The notes: generated by a model from the sequence alone, not told the origin. Numbered from the stretch's first letter, positions 29,180 to 43,857 are shown. The stretch: DNA of 64,000 bases from Patescibacteria group bacterium (GCA_041650755.1 JBAZKN010000001.1:4387-68386), one strand, 5' to 3'. Numbers and translations are program-made.

Positions 29180-29204
29180 CGAGATATTTCATATTAATTT
29201 ATAT

Positions 29205-29280
29205 GCCGTCTTAGCTCAGTTGGTAGAGCAACGCCATGGTAAGGCGTAGGTCCGCGGTTCAAGCCCGCGAGACGGCTCCA
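29205..29280 (+). tRNA. tRNA-Thr (anticodon GGU); integration target of island
   Basis: 76 nt; acceptor GCCGTCT/AGACGGC, anticodon loop ATGGTAA, T-arm CGCGGTTCAAGCCCGCG, CCA; 3' 46 nt duplicated at 43514-43559. Confidence 0.9.
29235..29280 (+). repeat. attL: 46-bp direct repeat (tRNA-Thr 3' portion)
   Basis: CATGGTAAGGCGTAGGTCCGCGGTTCAAGCCCGCGAGACGGCTCCA identical to 43514-43559. Confidence 0.85.
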
Positions 29281-29309
29281 TAAATACTGCAACTAATGTT
29301 GGAGTATTT

Positions 29310-30206
29310 TTGTTTATGAAAATCAGTCTACTTTTACAAGAGTTTTGTGATTATTCCCAGTATATTAGGGGATACGCGACTACTACAATAGGCCGTTATA
29401 GGAGAGTAGTATTGTTGTTTTGTAAATACGCCGGCATAGAAGACATAGAGGAGATAAATGAAAGTAATGTCAGGAACTTCTTTTTTAATGGTCGTACAGC
29501 CAAAAGTTGGTCTTCTAACACCTTTGTTTGCTATCACAAGACACTGGTGGTGTTTTTTCGTTGGTGCGTAAAGGAGGGGCATATGGTGGCTAATTTGGCC
29601 CAAGACGTAGAAACTCCCAGAATAGAGAAGAGATTGCCTCCCAAACTCACAAAACAGCAGGCGCTTAGGCTTCTAGAGGTCGTATATAATTATCCTTATC
29701 AATACAAGTTTTTGCATTTTAGAAACCATGCTATTTTTGCCACCTTTTTATTTACCGGTATCAGAAGAAAAGAACTATTAAACTTGAAATATACTGACAT
29801 TGATCTTGAGAATCTGACGCTTTATGTAAGGCAGGGCAAGGGCAGTAAGGACAGGATTGTGCCACTAAATTATAAACTAGCTTCAATACTCCAGAAATAC
29901 AACCAGGAACGCTCTAGACTCAATAAGACATGTCCAGAGTTTTTTACTTCCCTAAACCGTAATATGGGGTTTAAGCAGATCGGTTTAAGGCGTTTGGTTG
30001 AGCAAGTTAGAAAGGTTTCTGGTATTAGTTTTAACGTCCATCGCCTAAGACATACTTTTGCTACCCTAATGTTAGAAGGTGGCTGTGATATTTATAGTTT
30101 ATCAAGGATAATGGGCCATAGCGACATTAAAACAACAACTATATATTTGGCGGCTAGTGGGGAGCATTTGAGACAACAAATAATAAAGAATCCTCTCGAA
30201 ATTTGA
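29310..30206 (+). CDS. int: Tyrosine-type site-specific integrase (XerC/D family)
   Basis: C-terminal catalytic RxxR...HRLRHTFA...LMGHSDIKTTTIY pattern (R-H-R-Y). Confidence 0.9.
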   Translation: MFMKISLLLQEFCDYSQYIRGYATTTIGRYRRVVLLFCKYAGIEDIEEINESNVRNFFFNGRTAKSWSSNTFVCYHKTLVVFFRWCVKEGHMVANLAQDVETPRIEKRLPPKLTKQQALRLLEVVYNYPYQYKFLHFRNHAIFATFLFTGIRRKELLNLKYTDIDLENLTLYVRQGKGSKDRIVPLNYKLASILQKYNQERSRLNKTCPEFFTSLNRNMGFKQIGLRRLVEQVRKVSGISFNVHRLRHTFATLMLEGGCDIYSLSRIMGHSDIKTTTIYLAASGEHLRQQIIKNPLEI

Positions 30207-30267
30207 ACCATAGACACTTATTGACTAACTCTCTTTTTAGGGCCATAATTAAAGCAAAATCTTTATT

Positions 30268-30909
30268 ATGGCAGTACCAATACCTCCACCAGATACATCT
30301 CAAACAACTTCCCTTATTGAGATACTAAAGCAGTTGGTTGGTTTAATTTTGGGATTATTGGGTGGAATTACTATTGAATCTACGTTGCATATCAGTCAAA
30401 AAATTATAAATAAAAATAGAATTAATTCGAAATCTAAAACAGGAGACCATAGTCCAGTAACGAATGTAGGCGTAACCGGGAATGATAATCAAGTTACTGT
30501 GAACACTAACAATGGTTTAGATAACAATGATCAAATAGATCAGGAAAAACTTTTTATCGGGAATGAAATAGATAAAATACTTATTTATAGAAAAATTAAC
30601 TTATTTTTTAGTCCTTGGTATAGGCAGGCTTACGTACAGTTAAATAAACATCTAGTATGTGCATCTGCTGCAGAATTTGCTAGGGCATTTTCAATAATCA
30701 AAGGGATATTTCTTGATCAGAATACTTATGACGGAGTTTTTGATCAAGAGGCACTTTCAATGATGGAGCACTCTTTTAATGAAATTGATAAATTCGTAAT
30801 TGATCAATCTAGTGACGAAAAACTGCTGTGTGGCATTATTAAAAATTTTGAAGCCGCTTTTTTTAGGTTAAAGAAGAATATAAATTATGAACCAGATAGA
30901 GTTACATAA
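30268..30909 (+). CDS. Hypothetical protein with N-terminal TM segment
   Basis: 213 aa; TM LIEILKQLVGLILGLLGGITI; end overlaps next ORF start. Confidence 0.55.
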   Translation: MAVPIPPPDTSQTTSLIEILKQLVGLILGLLGGITIESTLHISQKIINKNRINSKSKTGDHSPVTNVGVTGNDNQVTVNTNNGLDNNDQIDQEKLFIGNEIDKILIYRKINLFFSPWYRQAYVQLNKHLVCASAAEFARAFSIIKGIFLDQNTYDGVFDQEALSMMEHSFNEIDKFVIDQSSDEKLLCGIIKNFEAAFFRLKKNINYEPDRVT

Positions 30910-33868
30910 TAAAATATTAAAGATTTTAGCGGGTAATATTGGGGAAACAGATGCTGATGAGATTAAAAGCATAATTTCAACCAACGATGATGCTAGAAGA
31001 TATTTTTTCAGTAAGGCCGATGAAAAATGGCTTGTTTGGTTGTGGCAAAATGGGTTCATGGATGCCATTAAAGAAAAAATAAAAGATTCTTCATCGTATG
31101 CATATGCTAGCTCAGAACTAAATTATTTAGTAAAGGTAGCTGAAAAAGTTCCTGACGAAACAGCAAAAATTATATTGGAAGTGCCTGTTGAAGAAGGCTT
31201 TAACTCGGAAGTGGTAGATAGATTTTTATGGATTTGTAGTACAATGCCTGCACCGCAGCTTTCTAGGATAGTGCCAAAAATTCTAAATGAAAATTGGGTG
31301 ATTTTGATGAGCAGATTTAGAGATTGGGGGTTTGAATACGATAAAATGTTTCAGATCCTCGAAGGTGCTAAAGATTATGAAAGTATATTATTATTGGCCG
31401 AAGCTGTTCTATCAGTTAAGTCTCAAGAGGAATATCAAAGAGATGGTGTTTCGAGAGAGAGTCCATTTTATATAGAAAAATTATTCTACACAAAAGTTTT
31501 TGAACATCTTGTCAAATTACCAGTTAGCCATATAGAAAGAGCTTTGTCTTTAATAAATAAAACGATATTAAAAATTTCACTTATTAATTCGGAAGATAGT
31601 AGTAGCACTTTTTCAATTATTGATACTTTTTCTTATGGTATAGATTTTTTTTCTTTGAATCTTGGGGAGAATAAGCATGATCGATTTGGTGGAGATGTTC
31701 AAAATTTAATCGCTGCACTAAAACTGTTTTTAGAACGTTTCGTAAAAGATTGTATCAACAAAAGTGAAATTGAAAGGATTTATAATGAGTATATTTTTAC
31801 TTTACCTTCTTGTGAAGCAATGTGGCGTTTTCGATTATTCGCGCTTAATTTATCTTCTGAAATCTTCCAGAATAGTATAAAAGAGGAACTATTTTCTCTT
31901 TTCAATGGGAATCCATATGATAAATTGATTATTGAGTATCAAAAGTTATTAGGCTTGAATTTTTCCAATATGGCAGAAGTTGACAAGCGTAGTTACGTCG
32001 CTCAAGTTTTCGAATTTTTCGGAGCAAAAGTGGCAGATAAGAAAGAGCTTAAGTGGAATAAACAACGCGGATTAGAACTTTTGTCAAATATTTGTCGATA
32101 CTTAACTGATGAAGAGCTTTCAAAATGTGAAGATGTATTTGAAAAACAATGTATTCTTGACTATAAACCCGAGCCACTATTTCGCAAATTTTTCGCTGGA
32201 ACCGTAACTCCGATAGGTCCAATTAGCGCCGAAGAATTCACAAAATTTTCTATAAAAGAGATTGCGGAGAATTTGCGAAATAATTGGAGTCCGAAAAATT
32301 TATATAATAAATATAAAAATGATGATTTCCTAAAACCACGTAATGCTGAAGGAGTAGGTGAAATCTTAAAAAGTGATATATCTAAAAGATTGCAAGATTA
32401 TGTCTCAAATGCGGATTTATTTTTTGATCCTCAGTCTTTAGCGCCGCATTATTCTTATTCATTCTTTAGAGGTATTGAAACGGCAATAAAGGATAATATA
32501 GATACTGCAAAAAAAGTAGACTGGAGTATTTTAATTTCATTTTTAATTCGTATAAGAGGATTAGGTCAAGAAAATTTATCGAATGACGAAAAAGAAGAGA
32601 GAGAAGAATTTGATTCATGGTTAGCTGGATGGGATTCGGTGCATTCAGCTATAGTGGATGTTATACAGATTTTGATTGGTGAAGGAGAGGAAAAACATAT
32701 CATAAATTTTCCTAAGTATAGAGAGAAATTAATTCAGATTATAAGTTATTTACTTGAATATAAAGATCCAGTGCCCTCTGACGAAAATATTGAGACTGCC
32801 AAAATGAAAACTAGTGGAAGAGGCTCCAAAGATTACTTTGTAAGCGATCCATATTCGATGGCCATAAATACTGTTCGTGGAAGAGCATTTCAAGCACTTG
32901 TACTTTTTGTATATAGAGACGGCAAAGAGATAAGTAAAGATATAAAAAAAGAATACGAAACTGTTTTGAAAGACGAAAATACTCGCGCATTAATGTTTAT
33001 GTTCGGGAGATTTTTGCCATCCTTTTATCTAAGAGATAAACAATGGATTAAGGGTTTGTTGGAATTTATTTTTCCAATTGACCCAAGCAAGAATAATCTA
33101 TATTTGGCAGCATGGGAAGGCTATTTGACTGGCCCATTGTATGAACAAATTTTTGGAGATGAAGATTTTCAAAAACTATATTATAGAGGTTTGAGTGCAA
33201 ATAGTGGTCAGGATACTCATAGAAAATACGTGAAAGCGCCGGAAGAAGGGATAGCCGATCATTTGGCATTGGCATTCATGCATTATGAAAAGTTTGGATT
33301 TAGGAACAACTTATTTCGTGAATTTTGGAAAAGGCAGAACACCCGACGTGATGAATTCATCAGGTATTTGGGCAGCTTGTATATATCTGGTAGTAATGAT
33401 AATGCTGATAAACTACTAATTAAAAATCCTTTAGCTAAAAAAAGACTTGAAAAAATATGGGATTATGTACTTCAAAACTTTGAAGATCCAAAATTGTTTG
33501 AAAATTTTGGTTTTTGGATGAACATTGAAAAGAATGTGTTTGATGAAAAGTGGCTGGCAAAAAATATTGCAAAGACTCTAGAGAAGTCAAAAGGATCAAT
33601 TACGTGGGATTATGGGTTAACAAAATCTATAACTAGGTTAGCAGAGATTGCTCCAGAAGATTCACTTTTAATAACAAGATATTTCTTCTTTGAAGGAATG
33701 AAAGAAGAAAAGCGTAGGCCATTTTATTTAGATGATGAATGGATACAAACGTTCAAAATTTTATATAAAAATCCGATTACAAAACAGGGTACATACAAAC
33801 TTATAGATGACCTTATTCGTGAAGGTGGTAGCGTTTTTTGGAAGTTAGAAGATTTATTCAATTTATAA
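30887..33868 (+). CDS. Large hypothetical protein (993 aa), predicted all-alpha, no recognisable catalytic motif
   Basis: Long uninterrupted ORF, no Walker or nuclease motifs seen by eye; island cargo. Confidence 0.7.
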   Translation: MNQIELHNKILKILAGNIGETDADEIKSIISTNDDARRYFFSKADEKWLVWLWQNGFMDAIKEKIKDSSSYAYASSELNYLVKVAEKVPDETAKIILEVPVEEGFNSEVVDRFLWICSTMPAPQLSRIVPKILNENWVILMSRFRDWGFEYDKMFQILEGAKDYESILLLAEAVLSVKSQEEYQRDGVSRESPFYIEKLFYTKVFEHLVKLPVSHIERALSLINKTILKISLINSEDSSSTFSIIDTFSYGIDFFSLNLGENKHDRFGGDVQNLIAALKLFLERFVKDCINKSEIERIYNEYIFTLPSCEAMWRFRLFALNLSSEIFQNSIKEELFSLFNGNPYDKLIIEYQKLLGLNFSNMAEVDKRSYVAQVFEFFGAKVADKKELKWNKQRGLELLSNICRYLTDEELSKCEDVFEKQCILDYKPEPLFRKFFAGTVTPIGPISAEEFTKFSIKEIAENLRNNWSPKNLYNKYKNDDFLKPRNAEGVGEILKSDISKRLQDYVSNADLFFDPQSLAPHYSYSFFRGIETAIKDNIDTAKKVDWSILISFLIRIRGLGQENLSNDEKEEREEFDSWLAGWDSVHSAIVDVIQILIGEGEEKHIINFPKYREKLIQIISYLLEYKDPVPSDENIETAKMKTSGRGSKDYFVSDPYSMAINTVRGRAFQALVLFVYRDGKEISKDIKKEYETVLKDENTRALMFMFGRFLPSFYLRDKQWIKGLLEFIFPIDPSKNNLYLAAWEGYLTGPLYEQIFGDEDFQKLYYRGLSANSGQDTHRKYVKAPEEGIADHLALAFMHYEKFGFRNNLFREFWKRQNTRRDEFIRYLGSLYISGSNDNADKLLIKNPLAKKRLEKIWDYVLQNFEDPKLFENFGFWMNIEKNVFDEKWLAKNIAKTLEKSKGSITWDYGLTKSITRLAEIAPEDSLLITRYFFFEGMKEEKRRPFYLDDEWIQTFKILYKNPITKQGTYKLIDDLIREGGSVFWKLEDLFNL

Positions 33869-33912
33869 GATTATTATACGAAAGATAACTTGCATATTCT
33901 TTTATTTGTAAT

Positions 33913-34476
33913 ATGGTTGCCGCCAAAATTAAAGATCTAGCTAAAAAATTATTGGCCGAAAAAGATTTTGAAAATATCTTAAAGTTGATAGAAGATTTTA
34001 ATCAGCCACAATGTAGAAGAAGAGCCAGAGATGAATTAATGGCATTTGTTGGCGTCGTGCCAAAGAGACCATTGTATTATGTCGTCGCCAATATTATTCA
34101 TCTGCCTGATTTTGGAACTAGAGATATAATCCGTTATTTAGGAGATTATATTGACCAGATAGTTAGGTTTACCCTGGAAGAAAAAAATTTTTTGTCGAGA
34201 TGGTCGAAGAGGCCGCTCGGACCAAACATCATAAAATTAAAAAAATATATAGACAATGACCTTTATGAATGTTTGTGTTTATTTAATTTGATATATACGC
34301 AAGCAAAACATGACTTTAATCATTATAAAGACGAAAGCCTATTTGATTACAAGGACGCAATTTATGTGATATTTATTACTAAGCGATTAGCAAATAGATT
34401 ACTGCCCCTCTCTGAAAAAGCGAGAGATTATAATAATAGTGGTAAAACTCTTTATAAATACGATCCAGTGGAATAA
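33913..34476 (+). CDS. Hypothetical protein (187 aa)
   Basis: ORF with terminator-like hairpin downstream (AAATCGCCTAAATGGGCGATTT + T-run). Confidence 0.55.
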   Translation: MVAAKIKDLAKKLLAEKDFENILKLIEDFNQPQCRRRARDELMAFVGVVPKRPLYYVVANIIHLPDFGTRDIIRYLGDYIDQIVRFTLEEKNFLSRWSKRPLGPNIIKLKKYIDNDLYECLCLFNLIYTQAKHDFNHYKDESLFDYKDAIYVIFITKRLANRLLPLSEKARDYNNSGKTLYKYDPVE

Positions 34477-34665
34477 AATAAATCGCCTAAATGGGCGATT
34501 TTTGGTTTTTATAATTTTCAGGATTATTCCGCATATCTATTTCAAGAAGTAGTTGAAAAAAATTGATGAACTGAGTTCCTTGGCTGTATGCTTCCTCGCG
34601 ACTGATTTCTTTTCCGTGTACTTCTTTATAAATTTTTTGATATTCACTTATACTATCTTTGGGAA

Positions 34666-35112
34666 TCATTTCCCAATGTATTCTTTTATTGCCTGTTTAT
34701 AACCATCTCGCATATTTAAGCCATCTATTTCATCTATTGATACCCATCTATATTCCGAGTATTCATTATTTTCCATAATTTTATTTTCGTGTGAAATGCA
34801 GATATAAATTTTAACAGTAAATTGATACTGTGTTGCATTTACTTCTGAAGAAAAATTCCATGGTTCCAAAGCTGTCTTGATTTCAAAATTTTCCCAGCCT
34901 AGCTCTTCTTTGAGCTCTCTTTTCAGTGTTTTTTCTGGAGTCTCATCGTTCTCCATACGTCCACCGGGCATCTCCCAGACGCCCTTATGATCCTTCACTA
35001 AAAGGATTTTTTTATCCTCCTCAAATAGTGCTTTTACTGTGGTTTTTTCTATTTTTTTAGTCAAATTCATACATTGACATAGTAAACGTTTTCTGGTATT
35101 TTGTAAAGTCAA
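34666..35112 (-). CDS. NUDIX hydrolase
   Basis: Nudix box PGGRMENDETPEKTLKRELKEELGW (GGx5Ex7REuxEExGu); track start is TTG at 35112, alternative ATG at 35070. Confidence 0.85.
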   Translation of the reverse strand: MTLQNTRKRLLCQCMNLTKKIEKTTVKALFEEDKKILLVKDHKGVWEMPGGRMENDETPEKTLKRELKEELGWENFEIKTALEPWNFSSEVNATQYQFTVKIYICISHENKIMENNEYSEYRWVSIDEIDGLNMRDGYKQAIKEYIGK

Positions 35113-35151
35113 AGTCGTTTGACCATGTACCTTAACAAGGAGTAGATAGAC

Positions 35152-35958
35152 ATGAGGATCAAATATAGTGATCCGCAGGTCCAGTACGGGACTGCCCGTA
35201 ATCTACTCAACAGAGAGCTTGCTTGGGATAAATACGGCGTCGGCGCTGGTAAATATGGCATAGACTTCATCAACTTCGAGGGAAATGAGCTGGTACTTGA
35301 TGCCGGTTCAGGAACTGGAAGGGACGTTGCCATAATTAGCCAACGGCTGAACAAAGGCGGAAAAGTCTTTGCCGTAGACATCTCGCAAGCACTGTTGAGT
35401 ATCACCTGTCAGAGGGCTTGTAACACAATCACCACACCCCTGTGCGCTATTGCGTCAATTGAGAGTCTGCCTTTCGGCGATGGTCAATTTGATGTAGTAG
35501 TCGCCAAGCACGTCCTTAACCATGTCGATGATCTTGAGCGTGGAATGAGAGAAACACAGCGAGTAGTGAAGAGGAGGGGAAAAGTAGTAGTCACGACTGG
35601 CGTTAAGACGCCCGATGACGATCTGCTGAGAGTGTGCCACCAAGAAGCAATATCGCGTGTTGGCATCGAAACCACTGTGCGTCTTTCTCGTTCTCCTTTC
35701 CATTGTGGAAACGCTAGAGAGTACCTCAGTAGTCTCTTCGGAGACGTGAGATATCACTTCTACGGTTTCCAGATGGCGTTCCCTGACGTGGGTAGCTTCA
35801 TGTTGTATTACACGACACTGCCAAGCTTTCAGGAGTCCACCAGCGATCCGGCAACAAAATCTACTCTGGCGGCAGAAATGAGAAGCTTACTGGCCAGTAG
35901 AGAAATGCCGATCGTCTTGGATCGGTCACGCGGAACTTTCGTCTGCACCAAAATCTAG
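35152..35958 (+). CDS. Class I SAM-dependent methyltransferase
   Basis: Motif I VLDAGSGTGRD, acidic loop, motif LPFGDGQFDVVVAKHVLNHV; GC-rich; AAGGAG SD. Confidence 0.85.
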   Translation: MRIKYSDPQVQYGTARNLLNRELAWDKYGVGAGKYGIDFINFEGNELVLDAGSGTGRDVAIISQRLNKGGKVFAVDISQALLSITCQRACNTITTPLCAIASIESLPFGDGQFDVVVAKHVLNHVDDLERGMRETQRVVKRRGKVVVTTGVKTPDDDLLRVCHQEAISRVGIETTVRLSRSPFHCGNAREYLSSLFGDVRYHFYGFQMAFPDVGSFMLYYTTLPSFQESTSDPATKSTLAAEMRSLLASREMPIVLDRSRGTFVCTKI

Positions 35959-35970
35959 GAGGAGAGAGCG

Positions 35971-37053: not shown

Positions 37054-37073
37054 AAAGTCGGAAAGGAACTACG

Positions 37074-38249
37074 ATGTTTCGACGCATCATTATCTTAGTG
37101 ATGGATAGCGTCGGCATCGGCGCTCAGCCTGACGCAGCAGACTACAAGAGCGTTGGCGCTAATACCTTCCATCACGCAGCTGAAGCACACCAGGATTTCA
37201 GGGTTCCCAACCTTGAGAAACTGGGTTTCGGTAACATCGTCGGAGTAAGTTGTATCCCGACCGTTCATCGACCTCTTGCGCACTTCGGGCGCATGATGGA
37301 AACGACGTCGGGAAATGACACCTTCGCCGGCATCTGGGAAATGGCAGGCGTTACTTTTACAGAACGATTCGCATCGTTCTACCCCAAGATGTCGCTTGAC
37401 TTGGTGCAGCAAATGCAACAGGCCATAGGCACCCTTACGCTCTGTAACGCCTACATCTCTGGTTTCAAGGTGTTTGACGAATACGCCGACCAACACTTCG
37501 CAACAGGTCAGCCTATTGTCTACACCTGTGACGATGGGGTGGTCTTAGTAGCAGCTCACGAAGGTGTTGTTCCACCAGCTAGGCTACATGAGATTGCCCG
37601 GAAGATGTCTCGTTTCTTTATCGGGAAGAACGTCACGAGAATCATCGCCCGAGCTTTTATCGGTGAAAAGGATAACTTCGTCCGCACCGAGAATCGGGCC
37701 GATATTATCGTGCCGCTTAATAAGAGTTGTGAACACCTATTCCAACGGATTCGAGAAGTCGGAATGCCTTTTACGGCTACTGAACACCTCGCTTCGGTGA
37801 TAGGCAGTGAGTTCGTCACCGAAGTAATACCTGGGATTATGGATTCGGCTGGTGTTATGGATTCTGTCCTGGAATACCTGAGAGTTGGTAAAGATGGCGT
37901 GGCTATGTTCGTTGTGCCAGACTTTGATATGTCTGGCCATGCTCGTAAACCCCGTCAATACGCTCTCGACCTTATGTACTTCGATCAGAGACTTGGCGAG
38001 GTTTTGCCGATGATCAACTGCGATGACCTTCTGTTGATTGTGGCTGATCATGGCTGTGATCCGGTTATAGCAATTCGGGGGCATACTCGAGAGTACGTGC
38101 CACTTCTAGTACTGGATGGCAACGGTGGTTCTAGCTCAGACCTGGGAACCAGGACGAGCTTTGCCGATCTAGGCCAGACTATCTGTGGTTTGATAGGAGC
38201 CAATCCCATTCCTCTTGGCGAAAGCTTCGCCGGCATCCTTAAGGAGTGA
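37074..38249 (+). CDS. Phosphopentomutase-like (DeoB family, alkaline-phosphatase superfamily) phosphosugar mutase
   Basis: N-terminal IILVMDSVGIGAQPDA...GANTFHH matches DeoB N-terminus (VLDSFGIGA...GADTLGH); 391 aa. Confidence 0.8.
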   Translation: MFRRIIILVMDSVGIGAQPDAADYKSVGANTFHHAAEAHQDFRVPNLEKLGFGNIVGVSCIPTVHRPLAHFGRMMETTSGNDTFAGIWEMAGVTFTERFASFYPKMSLDLVQQMQQAIGTLTLCNAYISGFKVFDEYADQHFATGQPIVYTCDDGVVLVAAHEGVVPPARLHEIARKMSRFFIGKNVTRIIARAFIGEKDNFVRTENRADIIVPLNKSCEHLFQRIREVGMPFTATEHLASVIGSEFVTEVIPGIMDSAGVMDSVLEYLRVGKDGVAMFVVPDFDMSGHARKPRQYALDLMYFDQRLGEVLPMINCDDLLLIVADHGCDPVIAIRGHTREYVPLLVLDGNGGSSSDLGTRTSFADLGQTICGLIGANPIPLGESFAGILKE

Positions 38250-38251
38250 TC

Positions 38252-39403
38252 ATGCACGAAGAACCTTTGCTGGCAATAAACGGTGGAAAAGCCGTTTATC
38301 CAGGAAGCCTCAAACGAGGTCGGGTCTTCGGTGAAGAAGAGCGGCAGGCCGTCTGGGAGGTAATGGGAAAGGGCGTAGTCTCAAAAGCTGGCATGGGTGA
38401 AATGGTGCAACGGTTTGAATGGGAATTCGCCGCTTATCACCAGATGCCCTACGCCATAGCGACCACGTCCGGTACCAGTGCCCTTCACACGGCTGTCGAC
38501 GCTTTGCAGATAGGCCCGGGAGACGAAGTCATTGTCCCTGACTTGACCTTCGTTTCCACAGCTTCAGTAGCTTTACAAGCGGGAGCGAAAGTCGTCTTCT
38601 GTGACATTGACCTCGACACCTTCAACCTGTCCGTGACTGATCTCAAAGCGAAGATAACCCCCCGTACCAAAGCAGTGATCGTGGTACATCTGTACGGCAG
38701 ACCCGCCGATATGGACCAGATCCTGCAACTGACAACAAAACACGGTATTCGTCTGATCGAAGACTGTGCTCAGGCCCATGGAGCCACCATCTGCGGGCAA
38801 CTCGTAGGAACGTTCGGTGACTTGGCTTGCTACAGCTTCTATCAGACGAAGAACATGAGCTGTGGAGAAGGGGGAATGGTCATTACCGCTAATGAGGAGC
38901 TGGCTCAAAGATGCAGGTCTTTGACCCGACACGGACTTATCGGCGATGACTTGGGTGTCTACAACTACGATAAGCTTGGCTACAACTACGCAATGACTGA
39001 GCTTCAGGCGGCAATTGGTATTGTGCAGTTGCGTAAACTCGCAACTCTCAACCATTACCGTCGTCAGAATGCCAAGCTCTACCGTGAAGGGTTGGACACT
39101 CTCCCGTTGCACTTCCAGGAAGACGCGGATGGTCACGTGGACCACTGCTTGACTGCAGTTCTTCCAGCTGAACTATCGCGTGAATGGTTTCTTAAGGCTG
39201 TGAGAGCTGAAGGGGCAATGGTCAACTGCCTTTATCCGTTAGCATTGTCGAGAACAGCGATATTTGTCGGCTCCAATCAGCCTACAGTATCGCATCGAGT
39301 CGCGACGTCACTGTTCAACCTTTACACCAACCCTGACGTGTCCTACGCCTTCGTAGAAGTGTGTTGCACAGCCATACGCAAGGTGTTGGGCTACGGGAGG
39401 TGA
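38252..39403 (+). CDS. DegT/DnrJ/EryC1/StrS-family PLP-dependent sugar aminotransferase
   Basis: TSGTSALH, DEVIVPDLTFVST, PLP-lysine context SFYQTKNMSCGEGGMV; start codon overlaps upstream stop (AGGAGTGATCATG). Confidence 0.9.
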   Translation: MHEEPLLAINGGKAVYPGSLKRGRVFGEEERQAVWEVMGKGVVSKAGMGEMVQRFEWEFAAYHQMPYAIATTSGTSALHTAVDALQIGPGDEVIVPDLTFVSTASVALQAGAKVVFCDIDLDTFNLSVTDLKAKITPRTKAVIVVHLYGRPADMDQILQLTTKHGIRLIEDCAQAHGATICGQLVGTFGDLACYSFYQTKNMSCGEGGMVITANEELAQRCRSLTRHGLIGDDLGVYNYDKLGYNYAMTELQAAIGIVQLRKLATLNHYRRQNAKLYREGLDTLPLHFQEDADGHVDHCLTAVLPAELSREWFLKAVRAEGAMVNCLYPLALSRTAIFVGSNQPTVSHRVATSLFNLYTNPDVSYAFVEVCCTAIRKVLGYGR

Positions 39404-39406
39404 GTC

Positions 39407-40321
39407 ATGAAGCACTTGTCCTATGTTGAGGCTGCTGATATGGCACACCTCTTGGCCCTCAAACAAGAGCGTCAGATCACGATCAGTTTAGCTCTCCCCG
39501 TCAGAAACGAGGAGGCGACCATTGGTCGTGTCATCGAGTGTGCCAGATCGTGCCAGCCGTTAGTTGACGAGATTATCGTCTTGGACAGCGGTTCTACCGA
39601 CAACACGCGGGAGGTGTGTTCAAGGTTAGGACTGGATGCGATCCCTGACGAACAGTTGGCCAAGGCCATGTCTATCCCTCTAGCCAGAGGAAAAGGATGG
39701 AATCTGTGGAGCAGTGTCTACTTCACGCGCGGTGATGTCATCGCCTGGATTGACACTGACATAGAGAACATCCATCCGCGCTTCATCCAAGGAATCGTCG
39801 CTCCTTTCCTGATGGATCCCGAGGTGATCTTTGCCAAAGGTTACTACAAGCGACCCAAGGGTGATGCCCGGGTGACCGAGATTCTTGCTCGGCCTTTCCT
39901 CAACATGCTGTTTCCCGAAGCTGCGAGTTTCATACAACCGTTGGCGGGGGAATACGCTGGGACTCGCGAGTTCCTCGAGAAAGCCACTTTCTACTCCGGG
40001 TATAGTGTAGAGGTGGCTATTCTGCTCCAAGCAGTACTTGAGTATGGACCGGAGAGAATCACCCAAGTGTTCCTCGACCAGCGGGTACATCCGCTTCAAG
40101 ATGTCCCGTCGCTTGGCAGGATGGCAGGTAGCATCCTGTACACTCTCCTGCATCTAGCTGAGCACTACAAGCGATTGACGCTTCAAGTGGATGTTCAGCA
40201 GGAAATGAGGGTGTTCAACGCCACCATCGATGGCGACAAGAACATCACCTCGGAAACGCTCAACGTCGCAGACACCGCTCTTCCTCGTGTGGTTGACCTT
40301 CCCAACTACCGGGAGAGGTAG
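39407..40321 (+). CDS. Family 2 glycosyltransferase (glucosyl-3-phosphoglycerate synthase-like)
   Basis: ISLALPVRNEE...EIIVLDSGSTDNT and DTD motif; GGAGGTGAGTCATG coupling to upstream gene. Confidence 0.85.
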   Translation: MKHLSYVEAADMAHLLALKQERQITISLALPVRNEEATIGRVIECARSCQPLVDEIIVLDSGSTDNTREVCSRLGLDAIPDEQLAKAMSIPLARGKGWNLWSSVYFTRGDVIAWIDTDIENIHPRFIQGIVAPFLMDPEVIFAKGYYKRPKGDARVTEILARPFLNMLFPEAASFIQPLAGEYAGTREFLEKATFYSGYSVEVAILLQAVLEYGPERITQVFLDQRVHPLQDVPSLGRMAGSILYTLLHLAEHYKRLTLQVDVQQEMRVFNATIDGDKNITSETLNVADTALPRVVDLPNYRER

Positions 40322-40336
40322 TCTGCACAGACAAAA

Positions 40337-40385
40337 GGGCCCGATGAACGAACATAACATTCTGACATCCGGGCCCTTTGAATTT
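40337..40385 (+). terminator. Rho-independent terminator ending GC-rich operon
   Basis: GGGCCCG-loop-CGGGCCC followed by TTTGAATTT. Confidence 0.7.
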
Positions 40386-40394
40386 GATAAAAAA

Positions 40395-40949
40395 TTATCT
40401 AAGTTCTCTATAATAATCGAAACTATTTTTAGTTAAAGATAAATTGAGTGGTAATTGCTCATTTTTTTGTTTATCATCTAATTCGGCTCGCATTTTCCCA
40501 AAATCCATACATCTACGCAGGTAATGTGGGATAGATGGGTCGATTTTTATAATTGCGGAGTATAAATTTTTTCTAGAAAAACTATTTAATCTGTTTTTTA
40601 CTATTAAGTTTGTCAGTTTTGGCACTAAATGGGGATTACCTAGCCGACATATGATATACGCTCCAACAGTGATATCCTCACCTAGAATAATGGTGGCCTC
40701 AAATAAGTGATCTGCTTTTTGGTATATGTCACTTTTTGGTACTTTATTCCAAACAAAACTAGCCATTTCATATTCATCAACTGGATTAATATCAAAGTTA
40801 ATGTTAAATGTTTTTGGTCTAGGCGTGCCAACAAAGCCAACGTCATCTTGATAATTGCTGGTAAAATAAGCCGGCATGGCTCTTTCGGCACTTGTAATTA
40901 AATCGTATATGGATGTAATTACAATTTTTTTCTTATTTGGCCAAAGCAT
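40395..40949 (-). CDS. Hypothetical protein (184 aa)
   Basis: AT-rich ORF within island. Confidence 0.55.
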   Translation of the reverse strand: MLWPNKKKIVITSIYDLITSAERAMPAYFTSNYQDDVGFVGTPRPKTFNINFDINPVDEYEMASFVWNKVPKSDIYQKADHLFEATIILGEDITVGAYIICRLGNPHLVPKLTNLIVKNRLNSFSRKNLYSAIIKIDPSIPHYLRRCMDFGKMRAELDDKQKNEQLPLNLSLTKNSFDYYRELR

Positions 40950-40957
40950 AATAAAAA

Positions 40958-41170
40958 TTATTTTCTAGTGTAATAAAGGATAACTGTAGTATTCAAAAAC
41001 ATCATTAGAATTACTCCTATAAACATTAAACCACCAGATGGTACTTGTGCCAAGGAAAGGAACCAAAATTCTCCAAATTCGAAAATAACAAACAAGAATC
41101 CGCCAATTAAAATCAAATTAATTAAAGTGTACAAGATGATACTTAACTTGGCTGTTTTCTCTTTAGTCAT
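40958..41170 (-). CDS. Small membrane protein (70 aa, 2 TM)
   Basis: Two hydrophobic helices; 8-nt gap to downstream gene. Confidence 0.5.
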   Translation of the reverse strand: MTKEKTAKLSIILYTLINLILIGGFLFVIFEFGEFWFLSLAQVPSGGLMFIGVILMMFLNTTVILYYTRK

Positions 41171-41411
41171 AAATTTGAATTAATGATACAAAAAAGGCCT
41201 CGCGCCAGTTGGCAACCCCTTGCGGTGTTACCACTACGCCCTTTCAGGCATAGACCTATCCTACAAGTACCGGTCACGAGACCATCTCTGTGTAGGATAG
41301 GTATTTGAAGCCATGCTCCAAAAATGGAGTTTAGGCCTTTTAATTGTAAGTTGAGTTTATCAAAAAAGAGCTATTTATTCAAGCTGGCGACTTGTTTATC
41401 AATAATATAAG

Positions 41412-42071
41412 GTGTATGATTTTATTAGTTATATGAATCAGATAGAGTGTACAATTAACGTCATGAATCTTCTTCTTTCTCAGTGGATGTTTTTTGATCA
41501 AATTAGTAATCCATTTTTTTATATTGATATAGATATATTTGCTGATGCCGCTGGTGGCCGCGCTAATCTGGTGAAAATAATTGAGGATTTTGAAAGGAGG
41601 AAGTGCGTAAAAAATGTTAGAGGGGTTAATGATACTTCAGAGTGGCGTACCATAATTTTATCTAACGGCGATAGATTGTCACTAAATATAATGCAAGATA
41701 ATTTAGAATATTATAGAGAAGTTTTGAAGAAAAATATCGCTAATAAAAATATCAGTTTAAGTAATTTTGATATTTCTTATGATGAAGATAGAAAAATATT
41801 AATAATTGGTAATGAGGAAATTTTGATAGATAATTCAACCAACCAAGATTATTTATGTAAAATCATGTTTAAGAGGGGGGTTGGTGTGCCAGTATATTGG
41901 GTGGATATATATGAAGCAATTCAAGGTGGGCACGAGCCAGAGAATGATAAAAAATGTAAGAAGATAATAGAAGATACGGTTTATATGGTTAACAATAAAG
42001 TCAGGGGGCTTATAGGAACCAATGATTTGTTATTTCGCAGTAACAAGGGCTATATAATAAGACAATATTGA
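41412..42071 (+). CDS. Hypothetical protein (219 aa)
   Basis: AT-rich ORF within island. Confidence 0.55.
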   Translation: MYDFISYMNQIECTINVMNLLLSQWMFFDQISNPFFYIDIDIFADAAGGRANLVKIIEDFERRKCVKNVRGVNDTSEWRTIILSNGDRLSLNIMQDNLEYYREVLKKNIANKNISLSNFDISYDEDRKILIIGNEEILIDNSTNQDYLCKIMFKRGVGVPVYWVDIYEAIQGGHEPENDKKCKKIIEDTVYMVNNKVRGLIGTNDLLFRSNKGYIIRQY

Positions 42072-42386
42072 TAAAATACGATCCGTAAGTGGGCCGTATA
42101 GAGCTGTTTTATAGTTAAAGTGATTATACTTTAACTTTTTTGTTTTTGTTGGAGTTCTATTAAAAACGTCCTAATAACAGGGGGTGAAGTACTAAAAATA
42201 AAAAATCTTAGTATTAATACCCCCACTACATATTAGTGTTTTTGTAAAAGTTGAAAATAAAACGGTATTAAGCAGAGGGAGTGATGCCTTGCACTCAATT
42301 TATTGTTCATTTGATACAAATTTAACAGGGTGCGACATGTAAGATATATAGGTTTTAATAGGCGAAAACGTATTTTATGGCTCAAA

Positions 42387-43373
42387 ATGCCAAAATACAA
42401 AAAGTACGTAAATGACACAAATTATATGGTTGAAATTAAGGAAATAATAAGCAAATTTATGGATCAGAAGGAATTTGCTGAAGATCGCTCAAAAGCCACG
42501 ATAGATAATTATCATTGGGTTTTTAAGCATTTATTACAATTAATGCCTGAAATCAAAGTCTTGAATGACATTAATCATGACAATGTGGTCGAATTTTTGA
42601 AAAGAGTCAGTACTAGAGAGAAAACCGTGGGCCATGAAAAGGTAGTGGGTATAAGCACCAGTACTAAAAGGACTTATATTAGTAAATTAAATACTTTCTG
42701 CGTGTGGTTGAATAGGAATGGTTATAAAAGAGATAATCCTATGGATAAGGAGAGTATGCCGCGCCCAAAGATTATATATAAAAATAGGAAATACTTGGAT
42801 TTAGATCAGGTAAGAAGGATATTGGTAGCCATTAGTCATAATATACGTTGGAGCAGTAATTTTATTAAAGCCAGAAATGAATTGATAATAGTTTTGGCCA
42901 TTACTTGTGGTTTGAGAAGATCTGAGTTATTAGGCATAACTTTGTCAGACATAGATTTAGATAATCGTAAAATTACTATTAGAGGGGTGACATCAAAGAG
43001 TAAAAAAACTAGATTTTTACACATTAATGCTTGGTGTATGGATATATTAAAAAAGTATCTATTGGAGAGGCGTAATAAACATTATAAAAATCCACATTTG
43101 TTTGTTTCTGATATGGTTGATAGGCCCTTTACGACACATGGGTTAAAGCACATGTTGAAAAAGGTAGAGAATACCTCTGGCATTGATTTTCACATGCACA
43201 ATTTCAGGCACACGTTTGCCTATATTTTGAAAAAAAACAACACAAACACTTCTTCGATACAGAATTTGTTGGGGCACAGTGCCGTGCAACATACTCAAAA
43301 ATATCTAGAAAATTTTCCAGATGACGAAAATGATAAATATATTGATCAAGTCACCCTTCAAAATCTTAAATAA
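42387..43373 (+). CDS. int: Tyrosine-type site-specific integrase (second copy)
   Basis: C-terminal HNFRHTFAYIL...LLGHSAVQHTQKY (R-H-R-Y catalytic pattern); start taken at MPKYKKY, track start 42330. Confidence 0.85.
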   Translation: MPKYKKYVNDTNYMVEIKEIISKFMDQKEFAEDRSKATIDNYHWVFKHLLQLMPEIKVLNDINHDNVVEFLKRVSTREKTVGHEKVVGISTSTKRTYISKLNTFCVWLNRNGYKRDNPMDKESMPRPKIIYKNRKYLDLDQVRRILVAISHNIRWSSNFIKARNELIIVLAITCGLRRSELLGITLSDIDLDNRKITIRGVTSKSKKTRFLHINAWCMDILKKYLLERRNKHYKNPHLFVSDMVDRPFTTHGLKHMLKKVENTSGIDFHMHNFRHTFAYILKKNNTNTSSIQNLLGHSAVQHTQKYLENFPDDENDKYIDQVTLQNLK

Positions 43374-43513
43374 TTGTGCTAATATGATAATAGAAATAAT
43401 TAAAATTAGTTGTAGTGTAAACGGGTCATTGCCACGGCATAAAAATTTTAATAGTTTTTCCAAATTATTCCCTAAGATTAGCTGAGGACAATAGAATCAG
43501 CACAGCGACCATT

Positions 43514-43559
43514 CATGGTAAGGCGTAGGTCCGCGGTTCAAGCCCGCGAGACGGCTCCA
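43514..43559 (+). repeat. attR: 46-bp direct repeat of tRNA-Thr(GGU) 3' end
   Basis: Identical to 29235-29280. Confidence 0.85.
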
Positions 43560-43857
43560 TTCGACTCCATCCCGCTTTGCGTGACTTCGCTCGTGGTCTA
43601 CGTTCTCGGCTTTGCCTTGAACTCCGACCACCATAAAGAGGCGAGTGTCACGAGTGAATTAAGCGCATCGAGGGGCACGAGATAAAATAATAAGTGGAAT
43701 AAAAATCAGCACTGTTAGCTGGTTTTTTAATATTTATCCCCAAGTTTGCGGGTGTTTTTTTATTTTTTTATGATGACTATGGTATAATATAATATATAAA
43801 AGTTGATTGCTTGACAATTTTTTGTAATTATACTATAATATAAAATTAAGATTAATT

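What the first reader, a model, noticed from the sequence alone, without database searches (positions are those of the whole stretch)
29205..43559. tRNA-Thr(GGU)-integrated ~14.3 kb island with two tyrosine integrases and mosaic cargo
The last 46 nt of the tRNA-Thr gene (29235-29280) recur exactly at 43514-43559. An integrase gene starts 30 nt after the tRNA, and a second integrase ends 140 nt before the repeat. Cargo has three compositional blocks:
- AT-rich unknowns at 30268-34476.
- The GC-rich biosynthetic operon at 35152-40385.
- AT-rich unknowns at 40395-42071.

Two integrases suggest tandem accretion of two elements, or an integrase plus a recombination directionality partner.
Basis: seen in the sequence. 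Interest (0 to 1): 0.6.

Follow-up and report, generated by a model that had tools for sequence, protein, structure and literature searches.

The report
Two-integrase island in tRNA-Thr gene
A 14.3-kb mobile island sits in a threonine tRNA gene of an uncultured Patescibacteria bacterium; its two integrase genes are the hallmark of a widespread island family I found no description of, which also carries the orphan RNA LOOT.

Summary
tRNA-Thr(GGU) lies at 29205-29280, and its last 46 nt (47 with the next base) recur exactly at 43514-43560. Intact tyrosine-recombinase genes sit just inside both ends.

Related Patescibacteria keep the same neighbourhood (TIM-FBA-TPR-tRNA-Tyr-tRNA-Thr). In two of them the CAP and dockerin genes follow the tRNA directly. 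In one, the intact tRNA is followed by the same trailer sequence that follows the repeat here. The 14.3 kb is therefore an insertion.

- There is no internal att copy.
- Int2 is a full, catalytically intact recombinase.
- The layout tRNA - Int1 - cargo - Int2 - tRNA fragment recurs in about a dozen unrelated metagenome islands.
- Other contigs carry the predicted excision-type junction, Int2 - tRNA fragment - Int1.
- Int1 and Int2 divergence is correlated (Mantel r = 0.60, 0 of 2000 permutations).

Cargo in related islands is mostly defence genes. Here it is a HEAT-repeat protein family of unknown function, a GC-rich NUDIX plus five-gene sugar module that also occurs outside islands, and a LOOT RNA. 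LOOT-like RNAs recur inside these islands.

Verdict: a real island, and a new dual-recombinase variant of tRNA-integrating islands. How the two enzymes share the work is inferred, not shown.

The parts
29205..29280 (+). Intact tRNA-Thr(GGU) gene. Its 3' part is supplied by the island (attL).
   Evidence: ARAGORN; Rfam tRNA, 65.6 bits.
29235..29281 (+). attL copy of the 47-nt identity block. It runs from tRNA position 31 (anticodon loop) to the CCA end, plus 1 nt.
   Evidence: Exact direct repeat D3; only 2 matches in the window and 0 in shuffles.
29284..29315 (+). Conserved hairpin/palindrome (ACTGCAA..TTGGAGT) plus a T-run, directly before the Int1 ATG. It is island DNA and looks like a terminator.
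   Evidence: Sequence. In 14 islands, 5 of its 9 pairs keep pairing through changes on both sides.
29316..30206 (+). Int1: a Xer-like 'simple' tyrosine recombinase of 296 aa. The ORF extends back to TTG 29310.
   Evidence: PF00589 at 4.6e-30. Below the XerC/XerD/XerA equivalog cut-offs. More than 2256 homologues, the top 120 at 63-91% identity. R150, K175/K178, H242, R245, H268 and Y277 are invariant.
30268..30909 (+). Unknown 213-aa protein. It overlaps the start of the next gene and is probably its separated N-terminal module.
   Evidence: No Pfam, PADLOC or PHROG hit. Many u993 homologues carry an extra 160-200 aa at the N-terminus.
30887..33868 (+). Unknown 993-aa all-alpha HEAT-like solenoid (u993). 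It belongs to a large uncharacterised family.
   Evidence: 1043 representatives at E<=1e-3. AF2 model with pLDDT 88.4. Only generic karyopherin-type matches, TM about 0.2. A homologue is cargo in island L102.
33913..34476 (+). Unknown 187-aa protein.
   Evidence: No family hit.
34487..34669 (-). 60-aa ORF, called as a gene in public annotation. Function unknown.
34666..35070 (-). NUDIX hydrolase, divergent from the operon and part of the travelling 5.7-kb module.
   Evidence: PF00293 at 4e-19; PADLOC PDC-S07 at 1e-18. The same gene sits next to the operon in L176 and L177.
35152..40321 (+). GC-rich five-gene operon: SAM methyltransferase, Gfo/Idh/MocA oxidoreductase, phosphopentomutase paralogue, DegT-type aminotransferase and a GpgS-like GT2 glycosyltransferase.
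   Evidence: Pfam and NCBIfam. 79% nucleotide identity over 5.67 kb (34697-40345) to L176, where it is also GC-rich (0.51 against 0.36 in the flanks) and has no integrase nearby.
40395..40949 (-). Unknown 184-aa protein, second gene downstream of LOOT.
   Evidence: No family hit.
40958..41170 (-). 70-aa hydrophobic (probably membrane) protein (u70), the first gene after LOOT.
   Evidence: Homologues follow LOOT in L102 and L111.
41211..41337 (-). LOOT RNA (Rfam RF03000). It points into the cargo from the Int2 end.
   Evidence: Full-length match, 70 bits against a gathering score of 46.4. 19 further LOOT-like hits lie inside related islands.
41412..42071 (+). Unknown protein. The ORF is 219 aa; the public gene call is 41463-42071.
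42426..43373 (+). Int2: a second Xer-like tyrosine recombinase of 315 aa, reading towards attR. The ORF extends back to GTG 42330.
   Evidence: PF00589 at 5e-31. 28% identical to Int1. 37% identical to the distal integrase of island L111, E 3e-73. R164, K191, H258, R261, H284 and Y293 are conserved.
43417..43427 (+). Conserved motif GTAAACGGGTC between Int2 and attR (consensus GGTAAACAGGTC). Role unknown.
   Evidence: Alignment of the Int2-to-attR spacers of 5 islands. The same motif flanks the tRNA-Lys fragments.
43514..43560 (+). attR: the displaced 3' fragment of tRNA-Thr, not a tRNA gene.
43560..43690 (+). Native host trailer of tRNA-Thr. This is outside the island and marks the original tRNA 3' flank.
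   Evidence: It shares modules with the trailers after tRNA-Thr(CGU) and tRNA-Tyr. It also aligns with the trailer after the intact tRNA-Thr of L013.

Best explanation
Window 29235-43560 is one integrated genomic island of 14.3 kb in the chromosome of an uncultured Patescibacteria bacterium. It is neither a phage nor a conjugative element.

**How it got there.** It entered by site-specific recombination in the 3' part of the tRNA-Thr(GGU) gene. The island brings its own copy of tRNA positions 31-76, so the gene stays whole at the left end. The original 3' piece is left as a 47-nt repeat at the right end.

**What defines the family.** The hallmark is a pair of Xer-like tyrosine recombinases at opposite ends, both reading in the direction of the tRNA:
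- Int1 starts about 36 nt after the tRNA, behind a conserved hairpin and T-run.
- Int2 ends 140 nt before the displaced fragment.

**What excision would produce.** Recombination between the two repeats would release a circle in which int2, attP and int1 lie next to each other.

**Inferred mechanism.** The two enzymes most likely work together on the tRNA site. The likeliest arrangement is a XerC/XerD-style hetero-tetramer in which each enzyme exchanges one pair of strands.

**Cargo.** What lies between the two genes is exchangeable. In relatives it is mostly defence genes. Here it is:
- a three-gene set built around a HEAT-repeat protein;
- a NUDIX gene plus a five-gene sugar-modifying module that also travels on its own;
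- a LOOT RNA that heads a small gene pair.

**Status of each step.**
- Shown: the insertion, the conserved pair, the junction form in other contigs and the correlated divergence.
- Inferred: joint catalysis, the crossover position and present-day mobility.
For: **The segment is an insertion.**
- The 47-nt repeat is exact.
- The order FBA-TPR-tRNA-Tyr-tRNA-Thr is conserved in at least 10 related MAGs.
- In L003 and L013 the CAP homologue (46-47% identity) starts 300-470 nt after the tRNA, and the dockerin homologue follows it.
- Window 43514-43700 aligns at nucleotide level with the intact tRNA 3' half plus trailer of L013.
- The DNA after attR carries the host's own tRNA-trailer modules. The DNA after the tRNA at attL does not.

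**It is one element, not two.**
- There is no third att copy.

**The pair is conserved.**
- Int1 homologues sit about 36-56 nt after a tRNA-Thr 3' end, or about 100-127 nt after tRNA-Lys, in most of 80 metagenome loci.
- An Int2-like gene is present in about 38 of 83 Int1 loci.
- In the layout Int1 - cargo - Int2, a repeat of the tRNA 3' end lies 144-270 nt after Int2. Its longest exact stretch is 47 nt in the window, 41 in L111, 33 in L144 and 22 in L109, with shorter stretches in L102 and L175.

**The predicted junction exists.**
- At least 11 contigs carry Int2, then about 210 nt, then a tRNA-Lys 3' fragment without a 5' half, then about 125 nt, then Int1.

**The two proteins behave as partners.**
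- Their pairwise identities correlate (Mantel Spearman r 0.60, 0 of 2000 permutations).
- Both are more similar within a target-tRNA class than between classes.
- Both keep the full catalytic set.

**It is not a phage, ICE or IME.**
- PHROGs matches only the integrases.
- No close Int1 relative occurs in 2.9 million viral contigs.
- No capsid, relaxase, T4SS or replication family is among the 25 commonest Pfam families in 131 cargo ORFs, which are dominated by restriction-modification and other defence domains.
Against: - No circular form or strain-level empty site was seen. The empty sites come from other species, with FBA about 66% identical.
- Joint action of the two enzymes is inference only.
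- About half of the Int1 loci show no Int2 within the 10 kb available. One locus with a short distal repeat (L125) has no second recombinase.
- A third layout exists, with Int1 and Int2 convergent and adjacent in 6 loci. The simple model does not explain it.
- Int1 stays at 62-66% identity while host proteins drop to 27-63%. Long residence with strong constraint fits that as well as frequent transfer does.
- The junction contigs are long chromosomal pieces. They may be joints between tandem islands rather than free circles.
- All junction examples are of the tRNA-Lys type, not the tRNA-Thr type.
Confidence: 0.75

Rival explanations
1. Division of labour rather than a joint enzyme. Int1 alone integrates and excises at the tRNA. 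Int2 serves a different reaction of the same element, such as resolving tandem islands or multimers, inverting or exchanging the cargo segment, or controlling direction.
For: - Int1 is far more conserved than Int2 (median 66% against 43% identity) and always sits next to the tRNA.
- The convergent Int1/Int2 layout in 6 loci looks like the product of an inversion.
- Some Int1 loci show no Int2 within reach.
- A distant Int2 relative sits in a trio of three recombinase genes.
Against: - Int2 holds a fixed position 144-270 nt from the displaced fragment, with a conserved spacer and motif.
- Its sequence tracks the target-tRNA class as Int1's does. Both facts tie Int2 to the same att site.
- No second set of repeats that Int2 could act on was found in the island.
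Confidence: 0.3
2. Tandem accretion. Two unrelated single-integrase elements inserted one after the other into the same tRNA, and the inner att site was later lost.
For: - Int1 has a host-like GC content (0.38) while Int2 and the AT-rich cargo are at 0.30-0.33.
- The two integrases are only 28% identical.
- Tandem arrays of islands at one tRNA are a known phenomenon (general knowledge).
Against: - There is no internal att relic.
- The same Int1...Int2 bracket bounded by one repeat pair recurs in at least six other islands with different cargo.
- Divergence of the two proteins is correlated.
- Int2-fragment-Int1 junctions exist.
Confidence: 0.06
3. Int1 and Int2 are the cell's own XerC/XerD-type chromosome-dimer resolvases that happen to lie near a tRNA. 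The segment is a fixed chromosomal region.
For: - Both give their best NCBIfam matches to XerA, XerC and XerD.
- A published classification groups Xer-related recombinases of candidate phyla as a 'Cand' subgroup, listed among groups suggested to stand in for Xer (PMC8138268).
- Int1 is strongly conserved.
Against: - Scores are far below the equivalog cut-offs, for example 165 against 335 bits for XerC.
- Both genes lie inside an exact repeat of a tRNA end.
- Relatives lack both genes at this site.
- The content between them changes from genome to genome.
- The genes occur at tRNA-Thr(GGU), tRNA-Thr(CGU) and tRNA-Lys.
Confidence: 0.05
4. The island is real but is now an immobile relic kept for its cargo.
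For: - No circle or strain-level empty site was seen.
- The same chromosomal site is occupied across very divergent hosts.
- The attL copy of the repeat is protected by selection on the tRNA.
Against: - The attR copy is under no such selection, yet it is 47 of 47 identical.
- Both recombinase genes are intact with catalytic residues.
- Presence and absence vary between related genomes.
- Several MAG contigs break at or just after tRNA-Thr (L007 after tRNA-Tyr), and the Logan contigs break at the repeat or in tRNA-Tyr.
Confidence: 0.2

Closest known systems
Classical tRNA-integrating genomic islands (Islander/TIGER type; Williams' anticodon-loop sublocation class)
   Same: - An intact tRNA at one end and a displaced 3' fragment as a direct repeat at the other.
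- The identity block runs from the anticodon loop to the 3' end.
- A tyrosine integrase lies next to the tRNA.
- Cargo is variable, often defence genes.
   Different: - There are two recombinases, one at each end, both of the short Xer-like 'simple' type (296 and 315 aa) with no arm-binding domain.
- No Xis-like gene is present.
- The pair is conserved and its divergence is correlated across the family.
XerC/XerD-dif, and the mobile elements that exploit it (IMEX)
   Same: - Two paralogous Xer-like tyrosine recombinases, plausibly acting on one asymmetric site.
- The best profile matches are to Xer families.
   Different: - The recombinases are encoded by the element itself, whereas IMEX elements borrow the host's.
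- The target is a tRNA gene, not dif.
- Equivalog cut-offs are not met.
- Any FtsK link is unknown.
Multi-recombinase elements: Tn554 (TnpA plus TnpB), RIT 'recombinase in trio' elements, three-integrase GInt islands
   Same: - Mobile DNA that carries more than one tyrosine recombinase as a conserved set.
- A distant Int2 relative does sit in a trio of recombinase genes.
   Different: - In those elements the recombinase genes lie side by side at one end.
- Here they are split to the two ends of the integrated element and become neighbours only across attP.
- The target here is the 3' end of a tRNA.
SCCmec with CcrA/CcrB
   Same: A non-conjugative, non-phage island that inserts at one conserved chromosomal site using two cooperating site-specific recombinases and carries swappable cargo.
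   Different: - CcrA and CcrB are serine recombinases encoded side by side.
- The target is the end of the rlmH gene (orfX), not a tRNA gene.
LOOT RNA (Rfam RF03000)
   Same: The window copy is a full-length match at 70 bits.
   Different: - Rfam lists LOOT as a metagenome-based RNA (PMC7779021); I found no host or genomic context described for it.
- Here it has both: it lies inside dual-recombinase islands of Patescibacteria, at a cargo boundary, pointing inwards.

Membership tests
tRNA-integrated genomic island (Islander criteria) | Intact tRNA gene at one end | tested here: met
   tRNA-Thr(GGT) at 29205-29280.
tRNA-integrated genomic island (Islander criteria) | Direct repeat of the tRNA 3' fragment at the other end, in the same orientation and not a second tRNA | tested here: met
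   47 of 47 nt at 43514-43560; no tRNA is called there.
tRNA-integrated genomic island (Islander criteria) | Tyrosine integrase gene between the repeats | tested here: met
   Two PF00589 proteins, E about 1e-30.
tRNA-integrated genomic island (Islander criteria) | Absent from related genomes, with uninterrupted flanks (empty site) | tested here: met
   In L003 and L013 the CAP gene directly follows the tRNA. Nucleotide alignment with L013 supports this. The evidence is at species level only, not strain level.
tRNA-integrated genomic island (Islander criteria) | Excision to a circle carrying attP | not testable with these tools
   No read data were available. The attP pattern is absent from IMG/VR. 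Junction-type contigs exist only for relatives of the tRNA-Lys type.
XerC/XerD chromosome-dimer resolvases | Score above the NCBIfam equivalog cut-off | tested here: not met
   Int1 scores 165 bits for XerC (cut-off 335) and 159 for XerD (cut-off 330). Int2 scores 120 and 126.
XerC/XerD chromosome-dimer resolvases | Acts at a dif site near the terminus and depends on FtsK | not testable with these tools
   Only 64 kb of the genome is in hand.
Prophage | Capsid, tail, terminase or lysis genes | tested here: not met
   PHROGs matches only the two integrases among the nine proteins scanned. There is no close Int1 relative in viral contigs.
ICE / IME | Relaxase, T4SS or oriT | tested here: not met
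   No such Pfam family in the window's cargo, and none among the 25 commonest families in 131 cargo ORFs of related islands. oriT was not tested.
Integron | IntI-type integrase with attI and attC cassettes | tested here: not met
   The integron-integrase model scores 101 bits against a cut-off of 265. No attC-like repeat array was found.
RIT (recombinase in trio) | Three adjacent tyrosine recombinase genes | tested here: not met
   There are only two, 12 kb apart, and no other recombinase in the window.
LOOT RNA (RF03000) | Covariance-model score above the gathering threshold over the full model | tested here: met
   70 bits against 46.4, model positions 1-121 of 121.

The most novel reading that the evidence does not exclude
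Patescibacteria carry a phylum-wide family of self-contained 'shuttle' islands with these properties:
- They are driven by an element-encoded, XerC/XerD-like hetero-recombinase whose two genes straddle attP.
- Integration therefore splits the two genes to opposite ends, which could switch their expression.
- The backbone includes the so far orphan LOOT RNA as a leader or regulator of the cargo.
- The islands are the main vehicle for defence genes in these reduced genomes.
- The 'Cand' Xer-like recombinases of candidate phyla would then be island integrases rather than Xer substitutes.
Probability: 0.35. Interest if true: 0.78.

Novelty: new variant of a known kind. Interest (0 to 1): 0.62.

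Why it matters
**Gene exchange in Patescibacteria.** These bacteria have tiny genomes and few recognised mobile elements, and how they exchange genes is poorly known.
- This locus is an example of a large island family. More than 2000 Int1 homologues were found in the protein search, and more than 550 metagenome matches in the DNA scan.
- The islands sit at conserved tRNA sites and carry mostly defence cargo.
- They use an unusual two-recombinase design.

**A testable mechanism.** The design gives a concrete model for element-encoded hetero-recombinases acting on a tRNA gene.

**Annotation.** Genes now labelled 'XerD' in thousands of candidate-phyla genomes may be island integrases.

**LOOT RNA.** The orphan LOOT RNA now has a host and a genomic context.

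**This island's cargo.** A conserved sugar-modifying module and a large uncharacterised HEAT-repeat family are shown here to ride on such islands.

Tried and rejected
**Searches that found nothing**
- An internal third att site: pattern search with 3 mismatches and blastn-short.
- Int2 and u993 relatives in viral contigs.
- The attP junction in viral contigs.
- Supplements of the 2017 Weinberg paper on candidate structured RNAs are not held, so the original LOOT description could not be read.
- Literature on two-recombinase tRNA islands in candidate phyla.

**Uninformative or inconclusive results**
- An exact look-up of Int1 from the TTG start failed. The ATG start at 29316 worked.
- Logan contigs of a second run break at the repeat (or in tRNA-Tyr), so they say nothing about an empty site.
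- The promoter and terminator scan of the island was no richer than shuffled sequence.
- PADLOC matched only the NUDIX gene.
- The u993 structure search gave only generic HEAT-solenoid matches, so no function can be claimed.
- L125 has a short distal repeat but no second recombinase, so the pairing is not universal, or that repeat is a chance match.

**Readings considered and rejected**
- A second tRNA gene at the right end: rejected.
- The GC-rich operon as a recent import from outside the phylum: rejected. Its close orthologues are all from Patescibacteria, and the module keeps its high GC in their genomes too.

Full report
**1. The observation**

ARAGORN finds three tRNA genes in the window: tRNA-Thr(CGT) at 21274-21349, tRNA-Tyr at 28963-29048 and tRNA-Thr(GGT) at 29205-29280. 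Rfam confirms the last two.

The 3' 46 nt of tRNA-Thr(GGT), plus the next base, recur exactly at 43514-43560 (D3). A 32-nt part of the block with up to three mismatches matches only these two places and never matches in shuffled sequence.

The second copy has no tRNA 5' half in front of it and is not called as a tRNA. The block starts at tRNA position 31, one base before the anticodon loop, and runs through the encoded CCA.

Two ORFs with the phage-integrase catalytic domain lie just inside the repeats:
- Int1: 29316-30206 from the ATG, with the ORF starting at TTG 29310.
- Int2: 42426-43373 from the ATG, with the ORF starting at GTG 42330.

The host is at 0.41 GC, Int1 at 0.38, the AT-rich genes at 0.30-0.33, the operon at 0.50-0.54 and Int2 at 0.32.

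**2. Source and host**

The window is part of a 249,924-bp ENA metagenome contig, ERZ27247363 k141_2241731. Relatives of its aldolase in GTDB species genomes are Patescibacteria (Parcubacteria or Nomurabacteria type MAGs). The best is 74% identical. No same-species genome was available.

**3. Is it an insertion?**

The order aldolase - TPR protein - tRNA-Tyr - tRNA-Thr(GGT) is kept in at least ten related MAGs. In L003 and L013, homologues of the window's CAP-domain gene (46-47% identity) begin 300-470 nt after tRNA-Thr and are followed by dockerin-gene homologues. In the window the CAP gene begins 298 nt after the right-hand repeat.

The tRNA 3' half of L013 is identical to the repeat. The DNA after it aligns with window 43560-43700 through shared blocks: CTCGTGGTCTACG, CGAGTGTC[C/A]CGAG and TCGA[A/G]GGGCACGAGATAA.

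This trailer belongs to a host repeat family also found after tRNA-Thr(CGT) and tRNA-Tyr in the window, including an exact 51-nt repeat, 21394-21444 = 29129-29179. The DNA that now follows tRNA-Thr at 29281 has none of it.

The 14.3 kb is therefore an insertion exactly at the tRNA 3' end. Several MAG contigs end at or just after tRNA-Thr (L007 ends after tRNA-Tyr), and of two short-read contigs of a second run one starts inside the repeat and the other ends inside tRNA-Tyr. That is what a repeated or variable region produces in assembly.

**4. One element or two?**

No third copy or relic of the att block lies between the ends. The two integrases are only 28% identical, so neither is a recent duplicate of the other.

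**5. The Int1 family**

Int1 has more than 2256 homologues at E <= 1e-20. The best 120 are 63-91% identical and almost all are 295-302 aa.

In three independent look-ups the homologue lies at the same chromosomal place: TIM - FBA - TPR - tRNA-Thr(GGT) (tRNA-Tyr is detected before it only in L090/L091) - about 40 nt - Int1. The genes that follow differ each time:
- DNA methylases with an HNH nuclease;
- an MmeI/Eco57I-type enzyme with an SNF2 helicase and DruA;
- an M78 peptidase.

A scan of JGI metagenomes with an alignment of the family gave 557 confirmed matches, and 80 loci were fetched. ARAGORN places Int1 as follows:

| Position of Int1 | Loci |
|---|---|
| 25-60 nt after tRNA-Thr(GGT) | 13 |
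| 25-60 nt after tRNA-Thr(CGT) | 2 |
| 100-127 nt after tRNA-Lys | 11 |

Another 29 loci have a tRNA-Thr-like T-arm and acceptor end 36-56 nt upstream, with the 5' half about 260-300 nt further up. These are tRNA-Thr genes with an insert of about 205 nt right after the anticodon, which ARAGORN and Rfam do not recognise.

The short spacer between the tRNA and Int1 holds a conserved hairpin or palindrome followed by a T-run. Five of its nine pairs keep pairing through changes on both sides in 14 islands.

Only generic relatives of about 28% identity (plus two short fragments near 50%) occur in 2.9 million viral contigs.

**6. The Int2 family and the paired design**

The word-indexed protein search found only ten Int2 relatives. 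Translated searches of the Int1 loci were more revealing. Using Int2 and two island-borne relatives as queries, they found an Int2-like gene in about 38 of 83 loci, in three layouts.

*Layout 1: Int1, then 2-10 kb of cargo, then Int2 on the same strand.* This is the layout of the window and of about 13 other loci.
- Where sequence allows, a repeat of the tRNA 3' end lies 144-270 nt after Int2.
- The longest exact stretch is 47 nt in the window, 41 in L111, 33 in L144 (tRNA-Lys type) and 22 in L109, with shorter exact stretches in L102 and L175.
- L111 is a complete 7-kb example. It has Int1 (66% identical to the window's), a LOOT RNA, a KAP-NTPase protein, Int2 (37% identical, E 3e-73) and the repeat.
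- The Int2-to-repeat spacers of five islands align. They share an AT-rich block, the motif GGTAAACAGGTC (window 43417-43427) and, about 85 nt further on, the tRNA sequence from the anticodon loop onward.

*Layout 2: Int2, then about 365 nt, then Int1 in tandem.* At least 11 loci show this.
- The spacer holds a 3' fragment of tRNA-Lys that starts in the anticodon loop and has no 5' half.
- The fragment lies about 210 nt after Int2 and about 125 nt before Int1.
- These distances match those at the two ends of tRNA-Lys-type islands such as L144: 209 + 33 + 127 nt.
- This is the junction expected in an excised circle, or between two islands in tandem.

*Layout 3: Int1 and Int2 convergent and adjacent.* Six loci show this, and it is unexplained.

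Across 28 pairs, the Int1 and Int2 identity matrices correlate (Mantel Spearman r = 0.60, 0 of 2000 permutations). Median identity is 66% for Int1 and 43% for Int2. Both proteins are more alike within a target-tRNA class than between classes: 0.70 against 0.65 for Int1, and 0.49 against 0.41 for Int2. Both keep the Arg-Lys-His-Arg-His-Tyr catalytic set.

The two integrases are therefore a conserved partner pair of one element type.

**7. Mechanism**

Shown:
- Integration is at the tRNA 3' part, and the element restores the gene.
- The pair brackets the cargo.
- The two genes become neighbours across the att site in junction-type contigs.

Inferred:
- The two short Xer-like enzymes, which have no arm-binding domain, act together on the tRNA site, as XerC and XerD do at dif.
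- The position of the crossover. The identity block starts at the anticodon loop, which in Williams' scheme points to a crossover there. The T-arm, however, is the only clear inverted repeat inside the block, and many target tRNAs carry an insert in the anticodon loop. The T-loop therefore cannot be excluded.
- A consequence of the layout. In the integrated state int1 lies behind the tRNA and a terminator-like hairpin. In the circle it lies behind int2. Integration could thus change how the two genes are expressed.

**8. Cargo**

A census of 131 ORFs from 19 related islands is dominated by defence domains:
- nine DNA methylases and four ResIII helicases;
- R.HinP1I, Eco57I and AbiGi;
- a SMODS-type sensor domain, two reverse transcriptases and two KAP NTPases.

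No capsid, conjugation or replication family is among the 25 commonest families shown.

The window's cargo differs.

*The u213-u993-u187 set.*
- None has a Pfam, PADLOC or PHROG match.
- u993 belongs to a large uncharacterised family, with 1043 representatives at E <= 1e-3. Many carry an N-terminal extension the size of u213.
- It is also cargo in island L102.
- Its model (pLDDT 88) is an all-alpha HEAT-like solenoid with only generic matches.

*The NUDIX gene plus the five-gene operon.*
- The operon encodes a methyltransferase, a Gfo/Idh/MocA oxidoreductase, a phosphopentomutase paralogue, a DegT-type aminotransferase and a GpgS-like glycosyltransferase.
- Window 34697-40345 is 79% identical at nucleotide level over 5.67 kb to a module in another Patescibacteria genome, and 72% identical to one in a third genome.
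- In those genomes the module sits among housekeeping genes, with no integrase nearby.
- Its GC contrast is the same there: operon 0.51, NUDIX gene 0.33, flanks 0.36.
- The module is thus a travelling unit that this island has picked up. Its product is unknown. An amino- or methyl-sugar conjugate is a reasonable guess from the enzyme types.

**9. LOOT RNA**

Rfam's LOOT model matches 41211-41337 on the minus strand over its full length, at 70 bits against a gathering score of 46.4. Rfam hits also turned up in islands L111 and L101.

A covariance model built from the three copies found 19 hits outside the window among 93 sources:
- All are in Int1 loci, and all lie downstream of the Int1 start (binomial p = 3e-5).
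- None is in the six relatives without an island.
- The RNA lies either just after Int1 on the plus strand or 0.5-1.6 kb before Int2 on the minus strand. In both cases it points into the cargo.
- An ORF usually starts 38-100 nt after it, but the downstream genes differ between islands. The small hydrophobic (probably membrane) protein found in the window recurs in L102 and L111.

The Rfam 14 paper lists LOOT as a metagenome-based RNA (PMC7779021). I found no description of its host or context.

**10. Comparison with known systems**

The locus meets every testable criterion of a tRNA-integrated island. It fails the tests for prophage, ICE/IME, integron, RIT and canonical Xer (see the membership table).

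Its closest functional analogues are:
- XerC/XerD, for two cooperating Xer-like enzymes;
- SCCmec with CcrAB, for a two-recombinase, non-conjugative cargo island.

It is a member of neither. A published recombinase classification has a 'Cand' subgroup of Xer-related enzymes from candidate phyla, listed among groups that may compensate for Xer (PMC8138268). If Int1 belongs there, which was not tested, that reading would need revising.

I found no paper describing two-recombinase tRNA islands in these phyla. The library searched is incomplete.

**11. Verdict**

It is a single island of a large Patescibacteria family defined by a split pair of Xer-like recombinases and often a LOOT RNA.

I rate it a new variant of a known kind, with interest 0.62. 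The main open points are whether the element still moves, what each recombinase does, and what the convergent layout and the junction contigs represent.

Noticed in passing
window 21350-21445, 29049-29190, 43560-43690: The host tRNA genes are followed by related GC-rich 'trailers' of 100-140 nt. They start YTCGACTC and end GTCGAGGGRCA(CGAGATA), and include an exact 51-nt repeat, 21394-21444 = 29129-29179. Each folds somewhat better than shuffled sequence (z about -2.2). Relative L013 has the same trailer. The function is unknown: a processing signal, a terminator or a REP-like repeat.
   Followed up: partly
L102 9694-9962, and about 29 of the 80 Int1 loci (for example L111, L116, L119): The tRNA-Thr(GGT) gene next to the island carries an insert of about 205 nt directly after the anticodon. 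ARAGORN calls no tRNA, and Rfam finds nothing at E<=1. It may be an unrecognised tRNA intron. The displaced fragment at the far end of the island is of the insert-free type.
   Followed up: partly
L089 9719-9744; L090 9732-9768; L102 9534-9571: A 5' fragment of tRNA-Thr (positions 1-26 or 1-38, ending in the anticodon loop) lies about 150-170 nt upstream of the full tRNA-Thr. In L102 the stretch between them contains a GGAAACGGGCAC motif resembling the Int2-side motif. No model so far explains this. No such fragment occurs in the window.
   Followed up: no
L100, L124, L137, L147, L151, L170 (Int1 at about 10001 or as listed): A third arrangement: the Int2-like gene lies immediately after Int1 on the opposite strand (convergent). 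This might be an inversion product.
   Followed up: no
L094 105-4062: A distant Int2 relative (36% identical) sits in a row of three tyrosine recombinase genes of 337, 315 and 291 aa, like a 'recombinase in trio' element.
   Followed up: no
window 49900-51372: A 490-aa ORF with GC 0.52-0.56 in a 0.41 GC genome and no Pfam hit on record. It may be another foreign gene.
   Followed up: no
L176 7571-13235; L177 7646-13332: The NUDIX gene plus the five-gene GC-rich module occurs in two other Patescibacteria genomes, in different housekeeping neighbourhoods and without integrases. The module moves, or is retained, independently of the islands.
   Followed up: partly
window 43811-43839: A perfect sigma-70-type consensus (TTGACA, 17 nt, TATAAT) lies just upstream of the host CAP-domain gene, outside the island.
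   Followed up: no
window 41171-41210 (minus strand): Right after the LOOT match come GGCC and a run of six T. This can pair with AAAAGGCC just 5' of the motif, giving a terminator-like closing stem. The ATG of the 70-aa gene follows about 25 nt later.
   Followed up: no
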